IMG/VR virus record: IMGVR_UViG_3300013800_000001
Span: 1-22,064 of that record
Source: a virus
Lineage: Duplodnaviria; Heunggongvirae; Uroviricota; Caudoviricetes
Reading direction: 5' to 3' (one strand)
DNA length: 22,064 nt
The position numbers and the translations under genes were made by a program. The notes beneath the pieces were generated by a model that searched no databases, had not been told where the DNA came from, and was given only the letters and a program-made list of their open reading frames with translations. Of the stretch, positions 15,101 through 21,917 are shown piece by piece (the first letter of the stretch is position 1; the number at the start of each line of letters is the position of its first letter).

Positions 15101-15295
15101 ATCTTCAAGGCTTTGTATCTGACTATTGATACGATTAAGAGACTCCTGATCAGAAATATCAGAAGCTGTAGGTTTTCCATTCCCACCAAGTGCTGTAGGA
15201 GATGACCTTAACTGACTGTCGAATCTTCCTGCTTCTTGTTGGAGATTTGATATTTGTCTCTCAAGATTAGGAATATCTGAAGGTTTTGTTGCCAT
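12194..15295 (-). CDS. Large putative internal virion (ejection/pilot) protein
   Basis: 1033 aa, Ala/Gly-rich and helical, with glycine-rich hydrophobic stretches (APLGFALDITMDPVNWATMGTG) typical of podovirus-like core proteins. No catalytic motif recognised. Confidence 0.5.
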   Translation of the reverse strand: MATKPSDIPNLERQISNLQQEAGRFDSQLRSSPTALGGNGKPTASDISDQESLNRINSQIQSLEDSRLKTKWYGTDAKQKNAADSGEDSPGFFRSTLDYLSRPLYGVVGATKHFTGQGKGSLQQDVADNMVRNKNTFGDVLKNSNVPWAVAAPLGFALDITMDPVNWATMGTGALVPRLGMGLYKGVQTGEGALKGLSIAGKSSILEKASVAGRYTPFFRKSDAFKKLGEAAIKTTNSWEDLSGITAASIVSQGKGIGGSLFSGSYRLGLGDLIKKAAESTPNGAKILDNFIYDPVEWVRQARIKDVVQESLGQGADMKGAINAHLRGESIEPFLKQGAEEFSSAVKAASPVKVPFGIDTESVSALPTAKEVDTMVAKLAGTGLETKVAEAAPDIVNGVDDTASILKNPNTFISADPMENALRIANEKIGGEQITMEDIAKIVNSGALEETGVKWFDKMMGGIKSYTIQTNKNKDKAVAIGKNVMDKYDQAMGIFRAAKVGASPTAWTNAVVGNMIMTHMANGDVSPQFIARLKQSFDMYRNKSGSAAFLDGLLMSAGKSLGDENLIRRGILDNKTAARGTFGDLSFLNANDYAEVLLQRGRDNGMLSSAVKVDDIKDSLRGAMDELAEIRMNAGTEPVRGIIKAGKEVSRADIGTGMLSNEMFNSRATAAMFDHIAEKAKSDPSNIAWKLLDFTLNKMPSGYEKIDQTFKMATFLRATVDGYDINQLRQMRHLINMTPEELALGKYAKDGQNLYRLSPKSAIELANAMYLNYNAMPAAVRVLRNMPLMGSPFVSFMYGMALKTGQTLAYNPAAFNKVNFAMKDFGGTKTPLEKKALDTDFYSYLNQPGMFRLPFFEKNPIYLNMASMIPYYSLNMFNPSQTNYGDSAREQLTQALQGSPILKDPAGSVLFDYLIQPLILGEAIRPQGQFGQPLYPVDATGLEKLGYGARTFGEAFVPNITSYAGLLTPEEAAKYIPSYRWRQLSEAKEGKNQLGISSKEPKTSRTLRGLLQASGISVQAPVNTNFKDGGSAQ

Positions 15296-15320
15296 GATGC
15301 AACTATACTACAATCCCACT

Positions 15321-15716
15321 TTATTCGATAACTCTTCTATTGAGTATTTTCTCTCTTGGGTCAAGTGCTCCTTCATACCCTTCCTTTTCTGCTACCTTAG
15401 CGAAATACTTCCTCCAAGCATCTTTAGGGTAAAACTTGATCATGTATTTACCAGTTATCATCTTCTGATACTGACCAGCCCATCCTATTTTGTCTTTTTG
15501 CCTTACTAGAGCTATATCTCCGAGATGAGGGAGCCTAACTACTCCATTTTCCTTCAATTCAGATGTTAATAGCTTCACAAGGCCTTCATAGAATAGTTTT
15601 ATAGTCCTTTGATCAACATAGTTGTTGTATTCAGACAAAAGACGAAAAAAACGGGCTTCGTCAAAAGCTCCGCTTTTCTTTAATGCTTTTATATCTATCT
15701 TTGGTGTGTGCGCCAT
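15321..15716 (-). CDS. HU/IHF-like DNA-binding protein
   Basis: 131 aa. ELKENGVVRLPHLGDIALV...MIKFYPKDAWRKYF matches the HU beta-sheet/arm/C-helix pattern. Lacks the usual RNP arm motif. Confidence 0.65.
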   Translation of the reverse strand: MAHTPKIDIKALKKSGAFDEARFFRLLSEYNNYVDQRTIKLFYEGLVKLLTSELKENGVVRLPHLGDIALVRQKDKIGWAGQYQKMITGKYMIKFYPKDAWRKYFAKVAEKEGYEGALDPREKILNRRVIE

Positions 15717-15719
15717 AAT

Positions 15720-16060
15720 CCTTGATATGCATAATAATGACGGTGAGACTACTTTTTACTCACGCATACGCCCCTAAACCAACTTTTATTTTTGCGGTGA
15801 TACACACCCATGTGTATTAACCGGGACTACCCCTTAGGAGAGGGACACTTGTCCAAAGTAGCGTAATCAGTCACCCGTTTGCAAGTAGGTTTCTAATCCT
15901 TTTGTAGCTACTGGCTCATTTAGTTTATTTGGAGCCTCTTGACGCTATAGTCATAGTTATTTGTACGTAATACCACCCTACTGGACCCTATTGTCTTTCA
16001 AGTGTGCCTTATCGCCTAGCAAGCGATTCCTCAGCCACGTCATTATTATAAATATCAAGG
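15720..16060 (-). ncRNA. Unassigned ~340-nt structured RNA or 5' leader closed by a 23-bp terminal stem
   Basis: 16060-16038 pairs with 15742-15720 (21/23 Watson-Crick, plus one U.G on the minus strand). Many nested helices, no long ORF, and the predicted TSS (~16063) lies just upstream of the 5' arm. Confidence 0.75.
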
Positions 16061-16069
16061 TACTTTTAG

Positions 16070-16098
16070 ATGATACACAACTGCTAACGTATTGTCAA
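16070..16098 (-). promoter_or_regulatory. Sigma70-type promoter driving the ncRNA/HU/head operon
   Basis: Minus strand TTGACA (16098-16093), 17-nt spacer, TATCAT (16075-16070). Confidence 0.75.
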
Positions 16099-16120
16099 GT
16101 CTTTTAGACTCTTGTATATT
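16092..16120 (+). promoter_or_regulatory. Sigma70-type promoter driving the plus-strand gene
   Basis: TTGTCA (16092-16097), 17-nt spacer, TATATT (16115-16120). Its -35 overlaps that of the minus-strand promoter. Confidence 0.65.
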
Positions 16121-16125
16121 AAGGG

Positions 16126-16150
16126 TAGTTTTTTAACAATAGAACCAGAC
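16126..16150. repeat. Left arm of a 25-bp inverted repeat
   Basis: tagttttttaacaatagaaccagac. 23/25 match to the reverse complement of 17010-17034, with the inner 17 bp perfect. Confidence 0.9.
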
Positions 16151-16163
16151 ATATAAACTTTGG

Positions 16164-16195
16164 GCAAGAAGTCGCATTTTGTTGCGCAAGAAGTC
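16164..16195. repeat. Two 10-bp direct repeats GCAAGAAGTC, 22 bp apart
   Basis: Copies at 16164-16173 and 16186-16195, in the leader of the plus-strand gene. Confidence 0.75.
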
Positions 16196-16211
16196 CCTAC
16201 AACACACACAT

Positions 16212-16988
16212 ATGTTAAAGAAAGATTACGAAGTTCAAGTGATTATCAATGGAAAGCCTGTTAGAGAATTTTCGCATAACGGAAAGGTATACATTGAAGG
16301 AAGAAAAAATACTCGTTTTTCTATTAGAATAAAGAATAATTCCTACACCAGGAAGTTATTTGTACCCACTATTGATGGATTATCAGTCATGAATGGAGAA
16401 GAGGGCAGTTATTCGTCTAGCGGATATATAGTTCCTGCTTATAGCTCAAGGACAATAGAAGGATGGAGAACAAGCGATAAAGAAGTAGCTGAGTTTTATT
16501 TCTCTGCACCGGAGGGTTCATACAGGAAAAGAATGAAGAAAGGAAATAACCTAGGTGCTATAGGAGTGGCAGTATTTGAAGAGAGACAAAATTACACAGT
16601 AACAACAACCATAGGACAGCCCTGGTATTCAACTGGTGCTAGCATTACACCCAATCACCATTGGTATGGCGGAAACACATTTACAAGTGGAGTAGGTGGA
16701 AGTAATTCTGTAAACTGCTCATCACTATCTCCTCAATCTGCAGACAATCAAGTACTGCTTAGATCAGCAAAAAGCGTAAAACAAGCCATCGGTACTGGAT
16801 TCGGTGAATACAAAGAAAGTTCAGTTATATCAGTCAATTTCGATAGATGTACTAACCCAGTTGCCGTGTTTGAGATACTATACAACACTAAAGAAGAACT
16901 CCAGAAAGCTGGGGTAAATATGCAAAAGGAGCCCACGTATGTGACTCCTGAAGCGTTTCCAGGTCAATACTGTAAAGCCCCTCGTTAA
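16212..16988 (+). CDS. Conserved hypothetical protein, the only plus-strand gene
   Basis: ATG at 16212 preferred over TTG at 16179. YIEG...IRIKNN...TIDGLSV...GYIV...IEGWR...AEFYF...LGAIGVAVFEE and the C-terminal IGTGFGE...FDR...PEAFP resemble a widespread uncharacterised bacterial/phage family (from memory). Confidence 0.8.
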   Translation: MLKKDYEVQVIINGKPVREFSHNGKVYIEGRKNTRFSIRIKNNSYTRKLFVPTIDGLSVMNGEEGSYSSSGYIVPAYSSRTIEGWRTSDKEVAEFYFSAPEGSYRKRMKKGNNLGAIGVAVFEERQNYTVTTTIGQPWYSTGASITPNHHWYGGNTFTSGVGGSNSVNCSSLSPQSADNQVLLRSAKSVKQAIGTGFGEYKESSVISVNFDRCTNPVAVFEILYNTKEELQKAGVNMQKEPTYVTPEAFPGQYCKAPR

Positions 16989-17009
16989 TCGAGGACCTTA
17001 AATAAACCC

Positions 17010-17034
17010 GTCTGGTTCTATTGTTAGAAAGCTA
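17010..17034. repeat. Right arm of the 25-bp inverted repeat
   Basis: gtctggttctattgttagaaagcta. The outer edge overlaps the TAG stop of the 17032..17211 ORF. Confidence 0.9.
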
Positions 17035-17211
17035 TTTTCTCTCTAAATGATCTGCAAGTTTCCTGAGAATAGCAACAAGTTCGATGCTACCGGCTACATC
17101 AGCCTTAACAATACCTATATCATTGCCATCTGTCTCAATGATAATCTGGCGCATTTTAATAGGCACTTTTTCTTGAACTTTTTTCTCTTCTACTACTGGT
17201 CCTTCTGGCAT
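17032..17211 (-). CDS. Small protein (59 aa), absent from the ORF track; last gene of the tail cluster
   Basis: MPEGPVVEEKKVQEKVPIKMRQIIIETDGNDIGIVKADVAGSIELVAILRKLADHLERK*. Starts 4 nt after the stop of 17216..17491. Confidence 0.7.
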   Translation of the reverse strand: MPEGPVVEEKKVQEKVPIKMRQIIIETDGNDIGIVKADVAGSIELVAILRKLADHLERK

Positions 17212-17215
17212 ATAT

Positions 17216-17491
17216 TTATTGTGACTTTATTAAGTTCCCTGTTTCTATATCAATAGAATAATCAAGTGGACTTACCGGTGATATTGACTCAAACTCTTTC
17301 AAGATATCTATTTTATCAAGATTATAGTCAATTGAGTCTTTCCCTTTCTGAATCCAACCGATAACGTACTTCCCTATATTTTCCTCTGGAGTACCGTCGC
17401 TTATTTTGCATTGTAGAGCAAATTCATCATGAACTCTCCCATCTACTACAGAGAATACTTTACCTGTGTCTTTTTTGTAAAATAGAATCAT
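17216..17491 (-). CDS. Hypothetical tail-associated protein
   Basis: 91 aa, coupled to the upstream gene by an ATGA overlap. Follows tail-fibre-like genes, so possibly a chaperone. Confidence 0.6.
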   Translation of the reverse strand: MILFYKKDTGKVFSVVDGRVHDEFALQCKISDGTPEENIGKYVIGWIQKGKDSIDYNLDKIDILKEFESISPVSPLDYSIDIETGNLIKSQ

Positions 17492-20038: not shown

Positions 20039-21214
20039 TTAACTGCCCTTTACGTTGATAATTTGACGCAAAATATGCTTTACTCTCACTAATTCTTTGC
20101 TATTTTCCATTACATTATCAATGTCTTTGTATGCTGACGGCAATTCATCAATATAATCCTCGGATCGTCTTACAACAATACCCGCTAACTCTCTATCAAA
20201 GTCATCCATTGTGAATCTACGACGTGCCTCACTACGTGAGAATCGTCTTCCAGCTCCGTGTGGGGCTGAATGATAGCTCATTTTATTGGCTAATCCCTCT
20301 ACAATGTAGCTTTTTGTGCCCATTGATCCTGGTATTACCCCTAGTTGCCCGTCGTTCATCTGGATAGCACCCTTTCTTGTTATCCACATATTCTTTCCGA
20401 AGTGGTTCTCCATCTGAGTAAAGTTGTGATGACAGTTTATTCTATCAATTTCAATATCTTTTGCTCTACCACCCTCATCGAAGAAGGCGTAAGACATTTC
20501 TTCAAGCACACGATCCATCATTTCTTCTCGGTTTAGACGTGCATAATCCTGAGACCATAGTAGGTCATAGATATAGTCATCAAAACCTTCAATACCAGTC
20601 GGTAGATAGGATAGATCTTTATCTGGTAGCTTGATGTGCATGGTATCCATTAGCTTCATAGCCACTTTTATATGACGATCTGCTAAACGATTTCCCACTC
20701 CTCTTGAACCAGAGTGTAGTACTACCCATACCCTATCCTCTTCATCCAAACAAACCTCAATAAAGTGATTCCCAGAACCAAGAGTCCCCAATTGGTTTTT
20801 CCAATCCTTACAGGCATCATCATAGTAATCCTTCTTTTTAGCATCTAGAGCTTTAACCCTTGCTAGGGCTGTTCCTTGTATTTTATTATTTTTAGCTCCT
20901 GCATTTAAAGGGATTCTACGCTCTATTCCTGCTCGAATAGATTCTAGATCTTCTGGCAAGTCCTTAAAAAAGAACTTTGTCTTAACGGCAATCATTCCAC
21001 ATCCGATATCAACACCAACTGCTGCTGGTATAATAGCGTTTTCAGTAGCGATAACTGAACCAACACAGGCACCCTTTCCAAGGTGGGCATCAGGCATAAC
21101 AGCTACGCCATGAACAAACGGCAATCCTGCCGCATTTTTTACTTGATCGAAAGCACCGCTTTCTAACTCTTCCTTAGGTAGGAAAAGTCTTAATTTTTCG
21201 TTTATTACTTCCAT
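20039..21214 (-). CDS. rtcB: RtcB 3'-phosphate/5'-OH RNA ligase
   Basis: All catalytic motifs present: MPDAH, VGVDIGCG, GTLGSGNHFIE, LHSGSRG, HHN, IPGSMG, HGAGR (guanylylated His) and ELPSAYK. Confidence 0.97.
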   Translation of the reverse strand: MEVINEKLRLFLPKEELESGAFDQVKNAAGLPFVHGVAVMPDAHLGKGACVGSVIATENAIIPAAVGVDIGCGMIAVKTKFFFKDLPEDLESIRAGIERRIPLNAGAKNNKIQGTALARVKALDAKKKDYYDDACKDWKNQLGTLGSGNHFIEVCLDEEDRVWVVLHSGSRGVGNRLADRHIKVAMKLMDTMHIKLPDKDLSYLPTGIEGFDDYIYDLLWSQDYARLNREEMMDRVLEEMSYAFFDEGGRAKDIEIDRINCHHNFTQMENHFGKNMWITRKGAIQMNDGQLGVIPGSMGTKSYIVEGLANKMSYHSAPHGAGRRFSRSEARRRFTMDDFDRELAGIVVRRSEDYIDELPSAYKDIDNVMENSKELVRVKHILRQIINVKGS

Positions 21215-21227
21215 ATAGTTTTTTAAT

Positions 21228-21917
21228 TTAATTTCGTCCCCTTGTTTCAGGGTATAAGTCTAATACAACGTCAGATTGAAAGACTTCTTTGGTATCTACA
21301 TCCATAAGAGATAGTTTTCCTTCCCATCCACCACCAGTGTCCATAAACCAGACATTACCGTACTTTATGGGCTTATGAGAAAACTTATATATGCTCGTAT
21401 GCCCAACATAAACCTCATTGAAGGCTGGATACGATATTCCGTTTTCATCATACATCCACTTTTTGTCCCACAATTGCCTATCCCACATCAAAACCTGATT
21501 ATTCTGTTCTTCAATAGGTAAGTTTGGATCAAACCCTCCATGGACATACAGATTGTTATTCTCATCAACAAAGTAGAATTTTGTACTTTTCAAAAACTCT
21601 CTATGCTTTTGCATTAACTCTGGATGTCGCTCAACATAGCCATTGTAGCTAGCTTGACCTCCCTGCAATAGCCAAACATCTGGCTGTTTTCCTTTTGTAA
21701 GCCAATCTTTTAACCATTGGTCATGATTCCCACGAACAAATACGAGATTTTTTATCTTCATTATCTCCTCAATCAGCTCTGGCACCTCTGGCCATCCATC
21801 TGCGACATCTCCTAGACAGATAAGTCTGTCATTTTCATAATCAAATTTAGATCGTTCCATTACCTGAAGAAATGATCTGTATCCGCCATGGCTATCTCCA
21901 AGTACTAGTGTTCTCAT
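21228..21917 (-). CDS. Calcineurin-like metallophosphoesterase (lambda phosphatase-like)
   Basis: GDSHG, GDVADG, RGNHD, VHGG, GHT and DTGG motifs occur in the canonical order. Confidence 0.92.
   Translation of the reverse strand: MRTLVLGDSHGGYRSFLQVMERSKFDYENDRLICLGDVADGWPEVPELIEEIMKIKNLVFVRGNHDQWLKDWLTKGKQPDVWLLQGGQASYNGYVERHPELMQKHREFLKSTKFYFVDENNNLYVHGGFDPNLPIEEQNNQVLMWDRQLWDKKWMYDENGISYPAFNEVYVGHTSIYKFSHKPIKYGNVWFMDTGGGWEGKLSLMDVDTKEVFQSDVVLDLYPETRGRN

What the first reader, a model, noticed from the sequence alone, without database searches (positions are those of the whole stretch)
16126..17034. Lone plus-strand gene enclosed by 25-bp inverted repeats: possible invertible switch or transposase-less cassette
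Seen: 23/25 inverted repeats (inner 17 bp perfect) bracket a 909-bp segment containing the only opposite-strand gene. The promoter lies just outside the left arm, and the right arm overlaps the stop of the last tail-cluster ORF (17032..17211). Both outer ends are TA. Inference: if inverted, the gene would lose its own promoter and become the next cistron of the late tail transcript, switching its timing or expression. Alternatives are a non-autonomous TA-targeting element carrying cargo, or purely RNA-level pairing. No recombinase or transposase is in the window, and the protein is uncharacterised.
Basis: partly seen in the sequence, partly recalled or inferred. Interest (0 to 1): 0.75.

Follow-up and report, generated by a model that had tools for sequence, protein, structure and literature searches.

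The report
RNA stem enclosing one phage gene
The 25-bp inverted repeat is not a DNA switch or a transposon end: it is a conserved RNA stem that pairs the start and the end of one phage messenger RNA, and dozens of uncultured phages package this gene the same unusual way.

Summary
The repeat is real. Arms 16126-16150 and 17010-17034 match at 23/25, occur nowhere else in the 99-kb phage genome and are beyond chance. Both mismatches are G·U pairs in the gene's sense RNA.

About 40 distinct homologous loci carry an equivalent 20-40 bp helix at the same position. It ends 31-61 nt before the ATG and restarts 5-25 nt after the stop. The arm sequences differ widely yet stay complementary (28 arm families; 95% paired against 47.5% with shuffled partners). 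G·U pairs fit the sense strand 85 times and the antisense strand 11 times.

The helix is therefore selected as RNA, not as a recombination site. The genome has no serine or tyrosine recombinase, no inverted form appears in contigs or relatives, and there are no extra copies or target duplications.

A second covarying motif (16162-16197) lies in the 5'UTR of every member and nowhere else.

The helix encloses exactly this cistron whether it has its own promoter (as here), sits in a tRNA array or sits inside an operon. My best reading is an rRNA-like processing and end-pairing stem, probably cut by RNase III, plus a translational operator. The cleavage and operator roles are inferred. The scan noted the same design on another genome (unchecked).

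The parts
16092..16120 (+). Sigma-70-like promoter of the gene: -35 TTGTCA at 16092-16097, 17-nt spacer, -10 TATATT at 16115-16120. The predicted start is at about 16123-16128, the first bases of the helix.
   Evidence: 10/12 match. Equivalent boxes lie 1-14 nt before the helix start in 11 of 38 distinct loci. Perfect TTGACA-17-TAnAnT boxes are seen in further loci. The transcription start itself is inferred, not mapped.
16122..16150 (+). 5' arm of the long-range RNA helix.
   Evidence: Pair probability is about 1.0 in the partition function of the full-length mRNA.
16162..16197 (+). Conserved 5'UTR motif. P1 pairs 16162-16164 with 16195-16197. A pseudo-symmetric 9x9 internal loop carries YAnnGAAGU on both strands. 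The P2 hairpin pairs 16173-16176 with 16183-16186. I read it as a candidate translational operator.
   Evidence: Alignment A3. Covariance model R1 finds 65 matches, one per locus, each at the start codon of the homologue on the sense strand, and none elsewhere in 385 kb. 96.2% of cells pair, with 101 double-sided changes against 29 in shuffles and at most 56% paired in slid registers.
16212..16988 (+). Enclosed gene: a 258-aa Ig-like beta-sandwich protein of unknown function, with a weak sub-threshold DUF7918 (PF25534) match.
   Evidence: 24.9 bits against a cut-off of 27. 115 homologues at 29-77% identity. AlphaFold model with pLDDT 82. Only generic beta-sandwich matches in PDB and uncharacterised proteins in AFDB and the Atlas.
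17010..17038 (+). 3' arm of the helix, starting 21 nt after the stop codon. Its last bases overlap the stop codon of the convergent minus-strand ORF 17032-17211.
   Evidence: The duplex energy of the two arms is -39.7 kcal/mol.

Best explanation
The two arms are the halves of a long-range RNA helix in the sense transcript of the enclosed gene. The first bases of the mRNA pair with a segment about 20 nt after the stop codon, so the whole cistron and its 5'UTR become the loop of a stem about 28 bp long. This part is shown by comparative evidence.

The following steps are inferred.

- The stem works like the processing stems that flank 16S and 23S rRNA. It is a two-turn-plus double-stranded RNA that host RNase III cuts, releasing this cistron as a discrete mRNA whatever it is transcribed with. 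Here that is its own early-type promoter facing a convergent late gene. Elsewhere it is a tRNA array or a same-strand operon.
- Both new ends stay held in the remaining inner helix, shielded from nucleases that need a free end.
- The second conserved element, a pseudo-symmetric internal-loop motif between the stem and the ATG, is most likely a translational operator bound by a dimeric factor, possibly the encoded protein itself.
For: (1) The helix is present in relatives, with compensatory changes. The first four relatives examined, including one in a different gene context, all have it.

(2) Of 68 distinct loci with both flanks, 38 have an ungapped helix at the same position (score 15 or more). 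They fall into 28 arm families. True partners pair in 95% of cells (86% Watson-Crick, 9% G·U), against 47.5% on average and 55.8% at most with shuffled partners. Every helix position shows 4 or more pair types.

(3) All seven low scorers inspected that hold both the motif and both flanks show the helix with one bulge or mismatch.

(4) Non-Watson-Crick pairs are G·U on the sense strand 85 times and on the antisense strand 11 times (binomial p = 2.5e-15).

(5) Geometry is conserved. The left arm ends 31-61 nt before the ATG in 27 of 28 families, the right arm starts 7-32 nt after the stop (7-25 in 27 of 28 families), and the median length is 28 bp.

(6) The minimum-free-energy fold of the 924-nt transcript contains the 28-bp terminal helix with pair probability about 1.

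(7) The promoter sits so that transcription starts at the helix.

(8) The helix brackets exactly this cistron in very different settings:
- inside dense same-strand tRNA arrays in L076 and L015, and directly after a tRNA in L023;
- with same-strand ORFs ending 0-11 nt before the left arm and starting 3-43 nt after the right arm;
- convergent with a late ORF in the window.
Only a processing role explains all three.

(9) The length matches the two helical turns or more that RNase III needs and the length of rRNA processing stems (established knowledge, not tested here).

(10) The 5'UTR motif has strong covariation and is exclusive to this gene's leader.
Against: - No RNA ends, cleavage sites or half-lives are available. 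The only RNA data are assembled contigs, and none covers the gene.
- The phage encodes no RNase III of its own, and the host is unknown.
- A long AU-rich stem could be needed simply for stability over 860 nt, without any cleavage.
- The outer half of the left arm is conserved in sequence (GTTCTTTGA-like) beyond what pairing requires. That hints at a further, unexplained role.
- The locus counts are related sequences, not independent events, so the p-value overstates significance.
- Helices were picked as the best local match, which inflates the percentage paired. The shuffled-partner and mismatched-flank controls address this only in part.
Confidence: 0.55

Rival explanations
1. The same sense-strand RNA helix exists but is not cleaved. 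It acts as a clamp that buries the 5' end, blocking the 5'-end-dependent decay pathway (RppH, RNase E, RNase J). It also holds the stop codon next to the leader, giving a bacterial closed-loop mRNA that is more stable or lets ribosomes re-initiate.
For: The predicted transcription start coincides with the first base of the helix in many loci. The right arm lies only 7-25 nt after the stop in 27 of 28 families. Known precedents for 5'/3'-UTR pairing that modulates RNase access or translation are hbs (PMC5737220) and icaR (PMC3868564).
Against: In operon and tRNA-array settings the arms are internal to a longer transcript, so without cleavage they protect no end. A near-perfect duplex of 24-40 bp is hard to keep uncut in a cell with RNase III (established knowledge). 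Protection would need far fewer pairs: hbs uses 14 bp.
Confidence: 0.33
2. The arms are terminal inverted repeats of a non-autonomous mobile cassette, moved as DNA by a transposase encoded elsewhere.
For: The gene always travels with its arms and leader, and it is found in unrelated neighbourhoods: RNA ligase and PNKP in L007, tRNA arrays in L076 and L015, and the HU-like module in the window.
Against: - There is a single copy in the genome and no similar arm elsewhere.
- No duplication flanks the arms.
- Arm sequences differ between relatives and covary instead of keeping a transposase-binding consensus.
- The conserved ends are the inner ones, not the outer ones.
- The G·U asymmetry has no meaning for double-stranded DNA.
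- The position is stable across relatives whose HU-like neighbour has diverged to 25% identity.
Confidence: 0.03
3. The arms are crossover sites of a site-specific invertase, and flipping the segment switches the gene between its own promoter and the late tail transcript.
For: Inverted repeats bracket a lone opposite-strand gene, with the promoter just outside one arm.
Against: - The complete 99-kb genome has no Resolvase or Phage_integrase domain.
- Contigs from two DNA runs cross both arms in the reference orientation with no strand-switch joints, although contigs hide rare variants.
- Every relative that keeps the HU-like gene directly upstream has the same orientation.
- The helix is equally conserved where the gene is co-directional with its neighbours, where inversion would have no such logic.
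- Covariation and G·U asymmetry point to RNA.
Confidence: 0.02
4. The pairing matters on the other strand, as a structure in a read-through late minus-strand transcript, or at the DNA level as protein-mediated looping or a cruciform.
For: The gene lies antisense to a block of late genes, and the right arm overlaps the end of a minus-strand ORF.
Against: The two mismatches in the window and 85 of 96 transition-type non-Watson-Crick pairs across families would be A·C mismatches on the minus strand. The helix is kept in loci with no antisense late genes.
Confidence: 0.03

Closest known systems
RNase III processing stems flanking 16S and 23S rRNA in bacterial rrn operons (established knowledge)
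   Same: Sequences on either side of a long RNA pair into a helix of roughly 25-30 bp, so the mature RNA is the loop. These stems sit in polycistronic precursors together with tRNAs, as in loci L076, L015 and L023.
   Different: Here the enclosed RNA is a protein-coding cistron with its own leader motif. Cleavage has not been shown. In the window the unit has its own promoter starting at the stem.
icaR mRNA 5'/3'-UTR pairing in Staphylococcus aureus (PMC3868564)
   Same: [quoted passage not shown]
   Different: The icaR interaction is a short UCCCCUG motif that masks the Shine-Dalgarno sequence. Here the stem is 24-40 bp, lies 31-61 nt upstream of the ATG, involves the very 5' end and does not cover the ribosome-binding region. 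It is also conserved with covariation across dozens of divergent phages.
hbs mRNA 5'/3'-UTR interaction in Bacillus subtilis (PMC5737220)
   Same: Long-range pairing of leader and trailer modulates ribonuclease access and so mRNA stability.
   Different: The hbs interaction is 14 bp and overlaps an RNase Y site in a structured leader. Here the helix is twice as long and terminal, and it also occurs inside operons and tRNA arrays.
cis-encoded RNA-RNA interaction in the yabJ-spoVG transcript forming an RNase III substrate (bioRxiv 10.64898/2026.09.18.752551; abstract only)
   Same: Intramolecular pairing within a polycistronic transcript gives one cistron its own post-transcriptional fate through RNase III.
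   Different: It is a repressive interaction in one staphylococcal operon, not a stem bracketing the whole cistron, and no family-wide covariation is reported in the abstract.
Phage T7 early-mRNA RNase III sites (established knowledge)
   Same: A phage uses host RNase III to cut polycistronic RNA into stable single-gene messages.
   Different: T7 sites are local hairpins between genes, not a helix formed across about 860 nt around one gene.

Membership tests
Invertible DNA switch (invertase plus inverted repeats) | Inverted repeats bracketing a promoter or gene | tested here: met
Invertible DNA switch (invertase plus inverted repeats) | A serine or tyrosine recombinase encoded nearby or in the genome | tested here: not met
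   PF00239 and PF00589 find nothing in the complete 99,376-bp genome, while the controls ring. A host-encoded enzyme cannot be excluded.
Invertible DNA switch (invertase plus inverted repeats) | Both orientations present in a population or among close relatives | tested here: inconclusive
   Only the reference orientation appears in the contigs of two DNA runs and in every relative that keeps the HU-like gene directly upstream. Contigs drop rare variants, and no raw reads were available.
Invertible DNA switch (invertase plus inverted repeats) | Repeat sequence conserved as a recombinase core site, symmetric on both DNA strands | tested here: not met
   28 different arm families; G·U asymmetry 85 to 11.
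Non-autonomous TIR transposon / MITE-like cassette | Target-site duplication outside the terminal repeats | tested here: not met
   The flanks are ...ATTAAGGG on the left and TTTTCTCT... on the right, with no duplication. The 'TA' lies inside the arms.
Non-autonomous TIR transposon / MITE-like cassette | Several copies, or related ends elsewhere in the genome | tested here: not met
   No other match with up to 3-4 mismatches.
Non-autonomous TIR transposon / MITE-like cassette | Empty sites in close relatives | tested here: inconclusive
   Every relative found that keeps the HU-like gene directly upstream carries the gene. A search seeded with the HU-like neighbour found no further viral contigs.
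Bacterial mRNA 5'/3'-UTR pairing (icaR / hbs type) | Complementary segments in the leader and trailer of one mRNA, supported by covariation | tested here: met
Bacterial mRNA 5'/3'-UTR pairing (icaR / hbs type) | Pairing overlaps the ribosome-binding site or a mapped RNase site | tested here: not met
   The helix ends 61 nt before the ATG in the window and 31-61 nt before it in relatives. No RNase sites are mapped.
RNase III processing stem (rRNA-operon type) | A near-perfect helix of about 20 bp or more formed by sequences flanking the released RNA | tested here: met
   Median 28 bp, range 20-43; 28 bp in the window.
RNase III processing stem (rRNA-operon type) | Embedded in a polycistronic precursor | tested here: inconclusive
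   True by gene arrangement in L076, L015, L023, L020, L073 and L091. In the window the unit seems to have its own promoter. No transcripts were mapped.
RNase III processing stem (rRNA-operon type) | Cleavage by RNase III | not testable with these tools
   This needs an in vitro or in vivo assay. The phage has no RNase III gene.
Any Rfam family (5'UTR motif or whole unit) | Match to a curated covariance model | tested here: not met
   Nothing relevant at E of 10 or less on 16100-16230, or at E of 1 or less on 15200-17400. Only tRNAs reach gathering score in 20 loci.

The most novel reading that the evidence does not exclude
This is an undescribed, portable 'self-packaged cistron'. A phage gene carries its own rRNA-style closing stem, so it can be dropped into tRNA arrays, operons or antisense positions and still be excised by RNase III as a discrete, end-paired mRNA. 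A new pseudo-symmetric leader motif lets the encoded beta-sandwich protein, or another dimeric factor, set its own translation. In an even bolder version, the paired ends are sealed by the RNA ligases these phages carry (RtcB here, Rnl1 in L007) to give a circular mRNA.
Probability: 0.25. Interest if true: 0.8.

Novelty: new variant of a known kind. Interest (0 to 1): 0.62.

Why it matters
Pairing between the two ends of a bacterial or phage mRNA is known from only a handful of single-species cases, with short interactions. Here a helix of rRNA-processing-stem size encloses a whole protein-coding cistron. Extensive compensatory change maintains it across dozens of divergent uncultured phages and in three different transcriptional settings, including the middle of tRNA arrays.

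That gives a clean, comparative-genomics-backed system for asking how single messages are carved out of, and stabilised within, polycistronic phage RNA. It also adds an uncatalogued 5'UTR motif specific to one widespread protein family of unknown function.

There is a practical lesson too. Gene-flanking inverted repeats in phage genomes should be tested for strand-asymmetric G·U pairs before they are called switches or transposon ends.

Tried and rejected
- DNA search of the region against 50,697 phage records: no match.
- Rfam at permissive thresholds on the leader, the whole unit and the neighbouring non-coding RNA: nothing relevant.
- Fold searches of the protein: only generic Ig-like, MSP or PapD-like sandwiches (Z of 7.4 or less) and uncharacterised AFDB and Atlas clusters, so no functional lead. 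PHROGs gave no hit. No paper mentions DUF7918.
- RNAduplex energies between flanks, tried as a gapped-helix statistic: not discriminating, because long GC-rich flanks and related arms give very negative control values. I relied on ungapped scoring with controls instead.
- A strict scan for intrinsic terminators after the right arm: only 1 of 28 families. My earlier impression that a terminator usually follows the stem was wrong; a few loci (L007/L008, L009, L021/L064, L061, L062) have weaker ones.
- A search for relatives with an empty site, seeded with the HU-like neighbour: none found.
- Read laying: all four runs are assembled contigs. They show no inversion joints, but they cannot show rare orientations, RNA ends or strand. 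No RNA contig covers the gene, and that absence carries no weight.
- The leader-motif model finds nothing in the neighbouring 340-nt RNA, so the visible resemblance between the two (CUUUGGRCAAG ... AGUCCC) stays an anecdote.
- Homologues in cultured jumbo phages (Atu_ph07, Phosso, RHph_I1_18) lack both the stem and the motif, so they cannot serve as ready test systems.

Full report
**Observation.** The window is the first 22 kb of a complete 99,376-bp phage genome with direct terminal repeats. It is an uncultured tailed phage whose terminase is at most 30% identical to any phage in GenBank. The arms are 16126-16150 and 17010-17034, 23 of 25 complementary, with a perfect inner 17 bp, 859 nt apart. 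The arm sequence has no other copy in the genome, even with 3-4 mismatches. Exact inverted repeats of 17 nt or more at 100-1500 nt spacing occur 0.03 times per shuffled genome. All substantial ORFs in the window are on the minus strand except 16212-16988. The right arm overlaps the stop codon of the minus-strand ORF 17032-17211. Both mismatches in the repeat place a T in the left arm opposite a G in the right arm. They are therefore U·G pairs in + strand RNA and A·C mismatches on the other strand. With G·U allowed, the helix reaches 28-29 bp.

**Relatives.** The enclosed 258-aa protein has 115 homologues at 29-77% identity in metagenomes and viral contigs. Many lie on contigs of about 100 kb. 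I collected about 120 loci from viral, metagenome and MAG collections. In the first four relatives the gene is again flanked by an inverted repeat, but with different sequences that remain complementary. One of the four (L007) has a completely different neighbourhood.

A systematic scan covered 68 distinct loci that have both flanks. In it, 38 have an ungapped helix (score 15 or more) at the same position. Mismatched flank pairs score 9.5 on average, with a 95th percentile of 13. All seven low scorers I inspected that hold both the motif and both flanks show the same helix interrupted by a single bulge or mismatch.

After collapsing to 28 arm families that differ at more than 3 of the 16 inner positions:

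- True partners pair in 95% of cells (86% Watson-Crick, 9% G·U), against a mean of 47.5% and a maximum of 55.8% when partners are shuffled between loci.
- Every helix position shows at least four pair types.
- The median length is 28 bp (range 20-43).
- The left arm ends 31-61 nt before the ATG in 27 of 28 families.
- The right arm starts 7-32 nt after the stop (7-25 nt in 27 of 28 families).
- Non-Watson-Crick pairs are G·U on the sense strand 85 times and on the antisense strand 11 times (p = 2.5e-15, not corrected for relatedness).

This strand asymmetry cannot arise from selection on double-stranded DNA. It identifies the functional molecule as the gene's own sense RNA. In the window, the minimum-free-energy fold of the 924-nt transcript contains the terminal 28-bp helix with pair probability about 1, and the two arms alone give -39.7 kcal/mol.

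**The DNA-level readings fail their tests.**

- The complete genome has no Resolvase or Phage_integrase domain.
- Contigs of two DNA runs cross both arms collinearly with no strand-switch joints. Contigs would hide rare variants.
- In each of the roughly a dozen distinct relatives that keep the HU-like gene directly upstream, the gene is divergent from that gene, although the HU-like protein has diverged to as little as 25% identity.
- There is no target duplication and no second copy.
- The conserved ends of the arms are the inner ends, not the outer ones.
- The protein is an Ig-like beta-sandwich, not a recombinase or nuclease fold.

**A second RNA element.** Between the left arm and the ATG, every member carries a motif that spans 16162-16197 in the window. 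It has a 3-bp P1, an internal loop whose two strands both read YAnnGAAGU, and a P2 hairpin. A covariance model built from 34 leaders finds 65 matches in 385 kb of loci searched on both strands. There is one match per locus, each at the start codon on the sense strand, and none anywhere else. On that alignment 96.2% of cells pair. There are 101 double-sided changes against 29 in shuffles, and slid registers reach at most 56% paired. Rfam has nothing like it. In L013 a tRNA-Phe gene is inserted in the P2 loop. Homologues below about 40% identity, including those of cultured jumbo phages, lack both the stem and the motif and use ordinary Shine-Dalgarno leaders.

**Transcriptional setting.** In the window the two best sigma-70-like matches within 2 kb are a back-to-back pair sharing one palindromic -35 box. 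TTGTCA-17-TATATT points into the gene (16092-16120). TTGACA-17-TATCAT points the other way (16098-16070). The + promoter predicts a start at the first bases of the helix. Equivalent boxes lie 1-14 nt before the helix in 11 of 38 loci and in several more with perfect TTGACA boxes.

Elsewhere the same stem-leader-ORF-stem unit appears in other settings:

- inside dense same-strand tRNA arrays (L076 and L015) or directly after a tRNA (L023);
- squeezed into same-strand operons, with the upstream ORF ending 0-11 nt before the left arm and the downstream ORF starting 3-43 nt after the right arm.

A canonical terminator after the stem is rare (1 of 28 under strict criteria).

**Mechanism.** It is shown that a sense-strand RNA helix encloses exactly one cistron and its leader motif. 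I put my confidence in this part at about 0.95.

The rest is inferred. The helix keeps the length of a two-turn-plus duplex, and it is retained where its arms are internal to longer precursors. The reading that covers all settings is therefore an rRNA-like processing stem. Host RNase III would cut it and release a discrete message whose ends stay paired in the remaining inner helix. I put this at about 0.55. The main rival, at about 0.33, is an uncleaved clamp that hides the 5' end and closes the mRNA into a loop, in the manner of hbs (PMC5737220) or icaR (PMC3868564).

The leader motif's pseudo-twofold symmetry, its position next to the ATG and its strict association with one protein subfamily suggest a translational operator for a dimeric binder, possibly the product itself. 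This is inference only.

**Comparison and novelty.** The closest known systems are the rRNA processing stems, T7-type RNase III maturation of phage messages, and the few bacterial 5'/3'-UTR interactions. This differs from them in several ways. It encloses a whole protein-coding cistron with a stem of rRNA size. It involves the extreme 5' end rather than the ribosome-binding site. It is conserved with heavy covariation across many divergent phages. It also comes with an uncatalogued leader motif. I class it as a new variant of a known kind.

An unchecked first-reader note of this scan (e1-5437304) describes the same design on another genome: a 23-bp repeat around one gene whose only deviations are G·U pairs.

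Noticed in passing
window 15720-16060 (minus strand): A second conserved inverted repeat (15720-15742 / 16038-16060) closes a non-coding RNA with a 295-nt interior of very constant size (294-299 nt in W, L005, L006, L009, L035, L012, L040, L041). Its sequence is highly conserved (alignment A2). Its wobble-type mismatches mostly fit the minus strand. The 11/12 promoter TTGACA-17-TATCAT (16098-16070) starts it at its arm. Contigs from two RNA libraries of different studies lie inside it (15749-16006 and 15773-15918) with no differences. Rfam gives no match at E of 10 or less, manA included, so an earlier agent's 'manA-like' label is not backed by cmscan here.
   Followed up: partly
window 16070-16120: One palindromic -35 box (TTGTCAAG / CTTGACAA, 16092-16099) serves two back-to-back promoters. 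Each transcript begins with an arm that pairs with a distal arm, so the neighbouring RNA and the mRNA share one design.
   Followed up: partly
L013:2330-2503: A tRNA-Phe gene (2388-2459) is inserted in the P2 hairpin loop of the 5'UTR motif, between the left arm and the ATG. If the tRNA is excised, the leader is split and held together only by base pairing.
   Followed up: no
L076:841-3795; L015:1310-3938: The stem-enclosed gene sits as one unit in dense same-strand tRNA arrays. In L076 there are four tRNAs before it and nine after it.
   Followed up: partly
L007:2957-5775; window 20039-21917; L122, L123: The gene family keeps company with RNA-repair and translation genes: T4-type RNA ligase 1 and PNKP flank it in L007, RtcB and a phosphoesterase lie 3 kb away in the window, and a ClpS adaptor, ribosome recycling factor and threonyl-tRNA synthetase fragment are its neighbours in jumbo phages Phosso and Atu_ph07. 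This may hint at the protein's function.
   Followed up: no
own genome G000:C1 45329-45346 and 45807-45824 (outside the window): This is the only other long inverted repeat in the genome (18 nt exact, 460 nt between the arms). It contains the same TTGTCAAG promoter box and flanks a 98-aa minus-strand ORF. It looks like a duplicated promoter region rather than an RNA stem.
   Followed up: no
window 16980-16994: A small hairpin (CCTCG-TTAAT-CGAGG) spans the stop codon of the gene and is kept in L005. Its role is unknown.
   Followed up: no
window 16126-16138 and the left arms of many loci: The outer half of the left arm is conserved in sequence (TAGTTCTTTGA-like) across arm families whose inner halves differ completely. 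The right arm follows it with G·U pairs. This part therefore seems to carry a sequence-specific role beyond pairing, perhaps as initial transcribed sequence or a protein or RNase recognition site.
   Followed up: no
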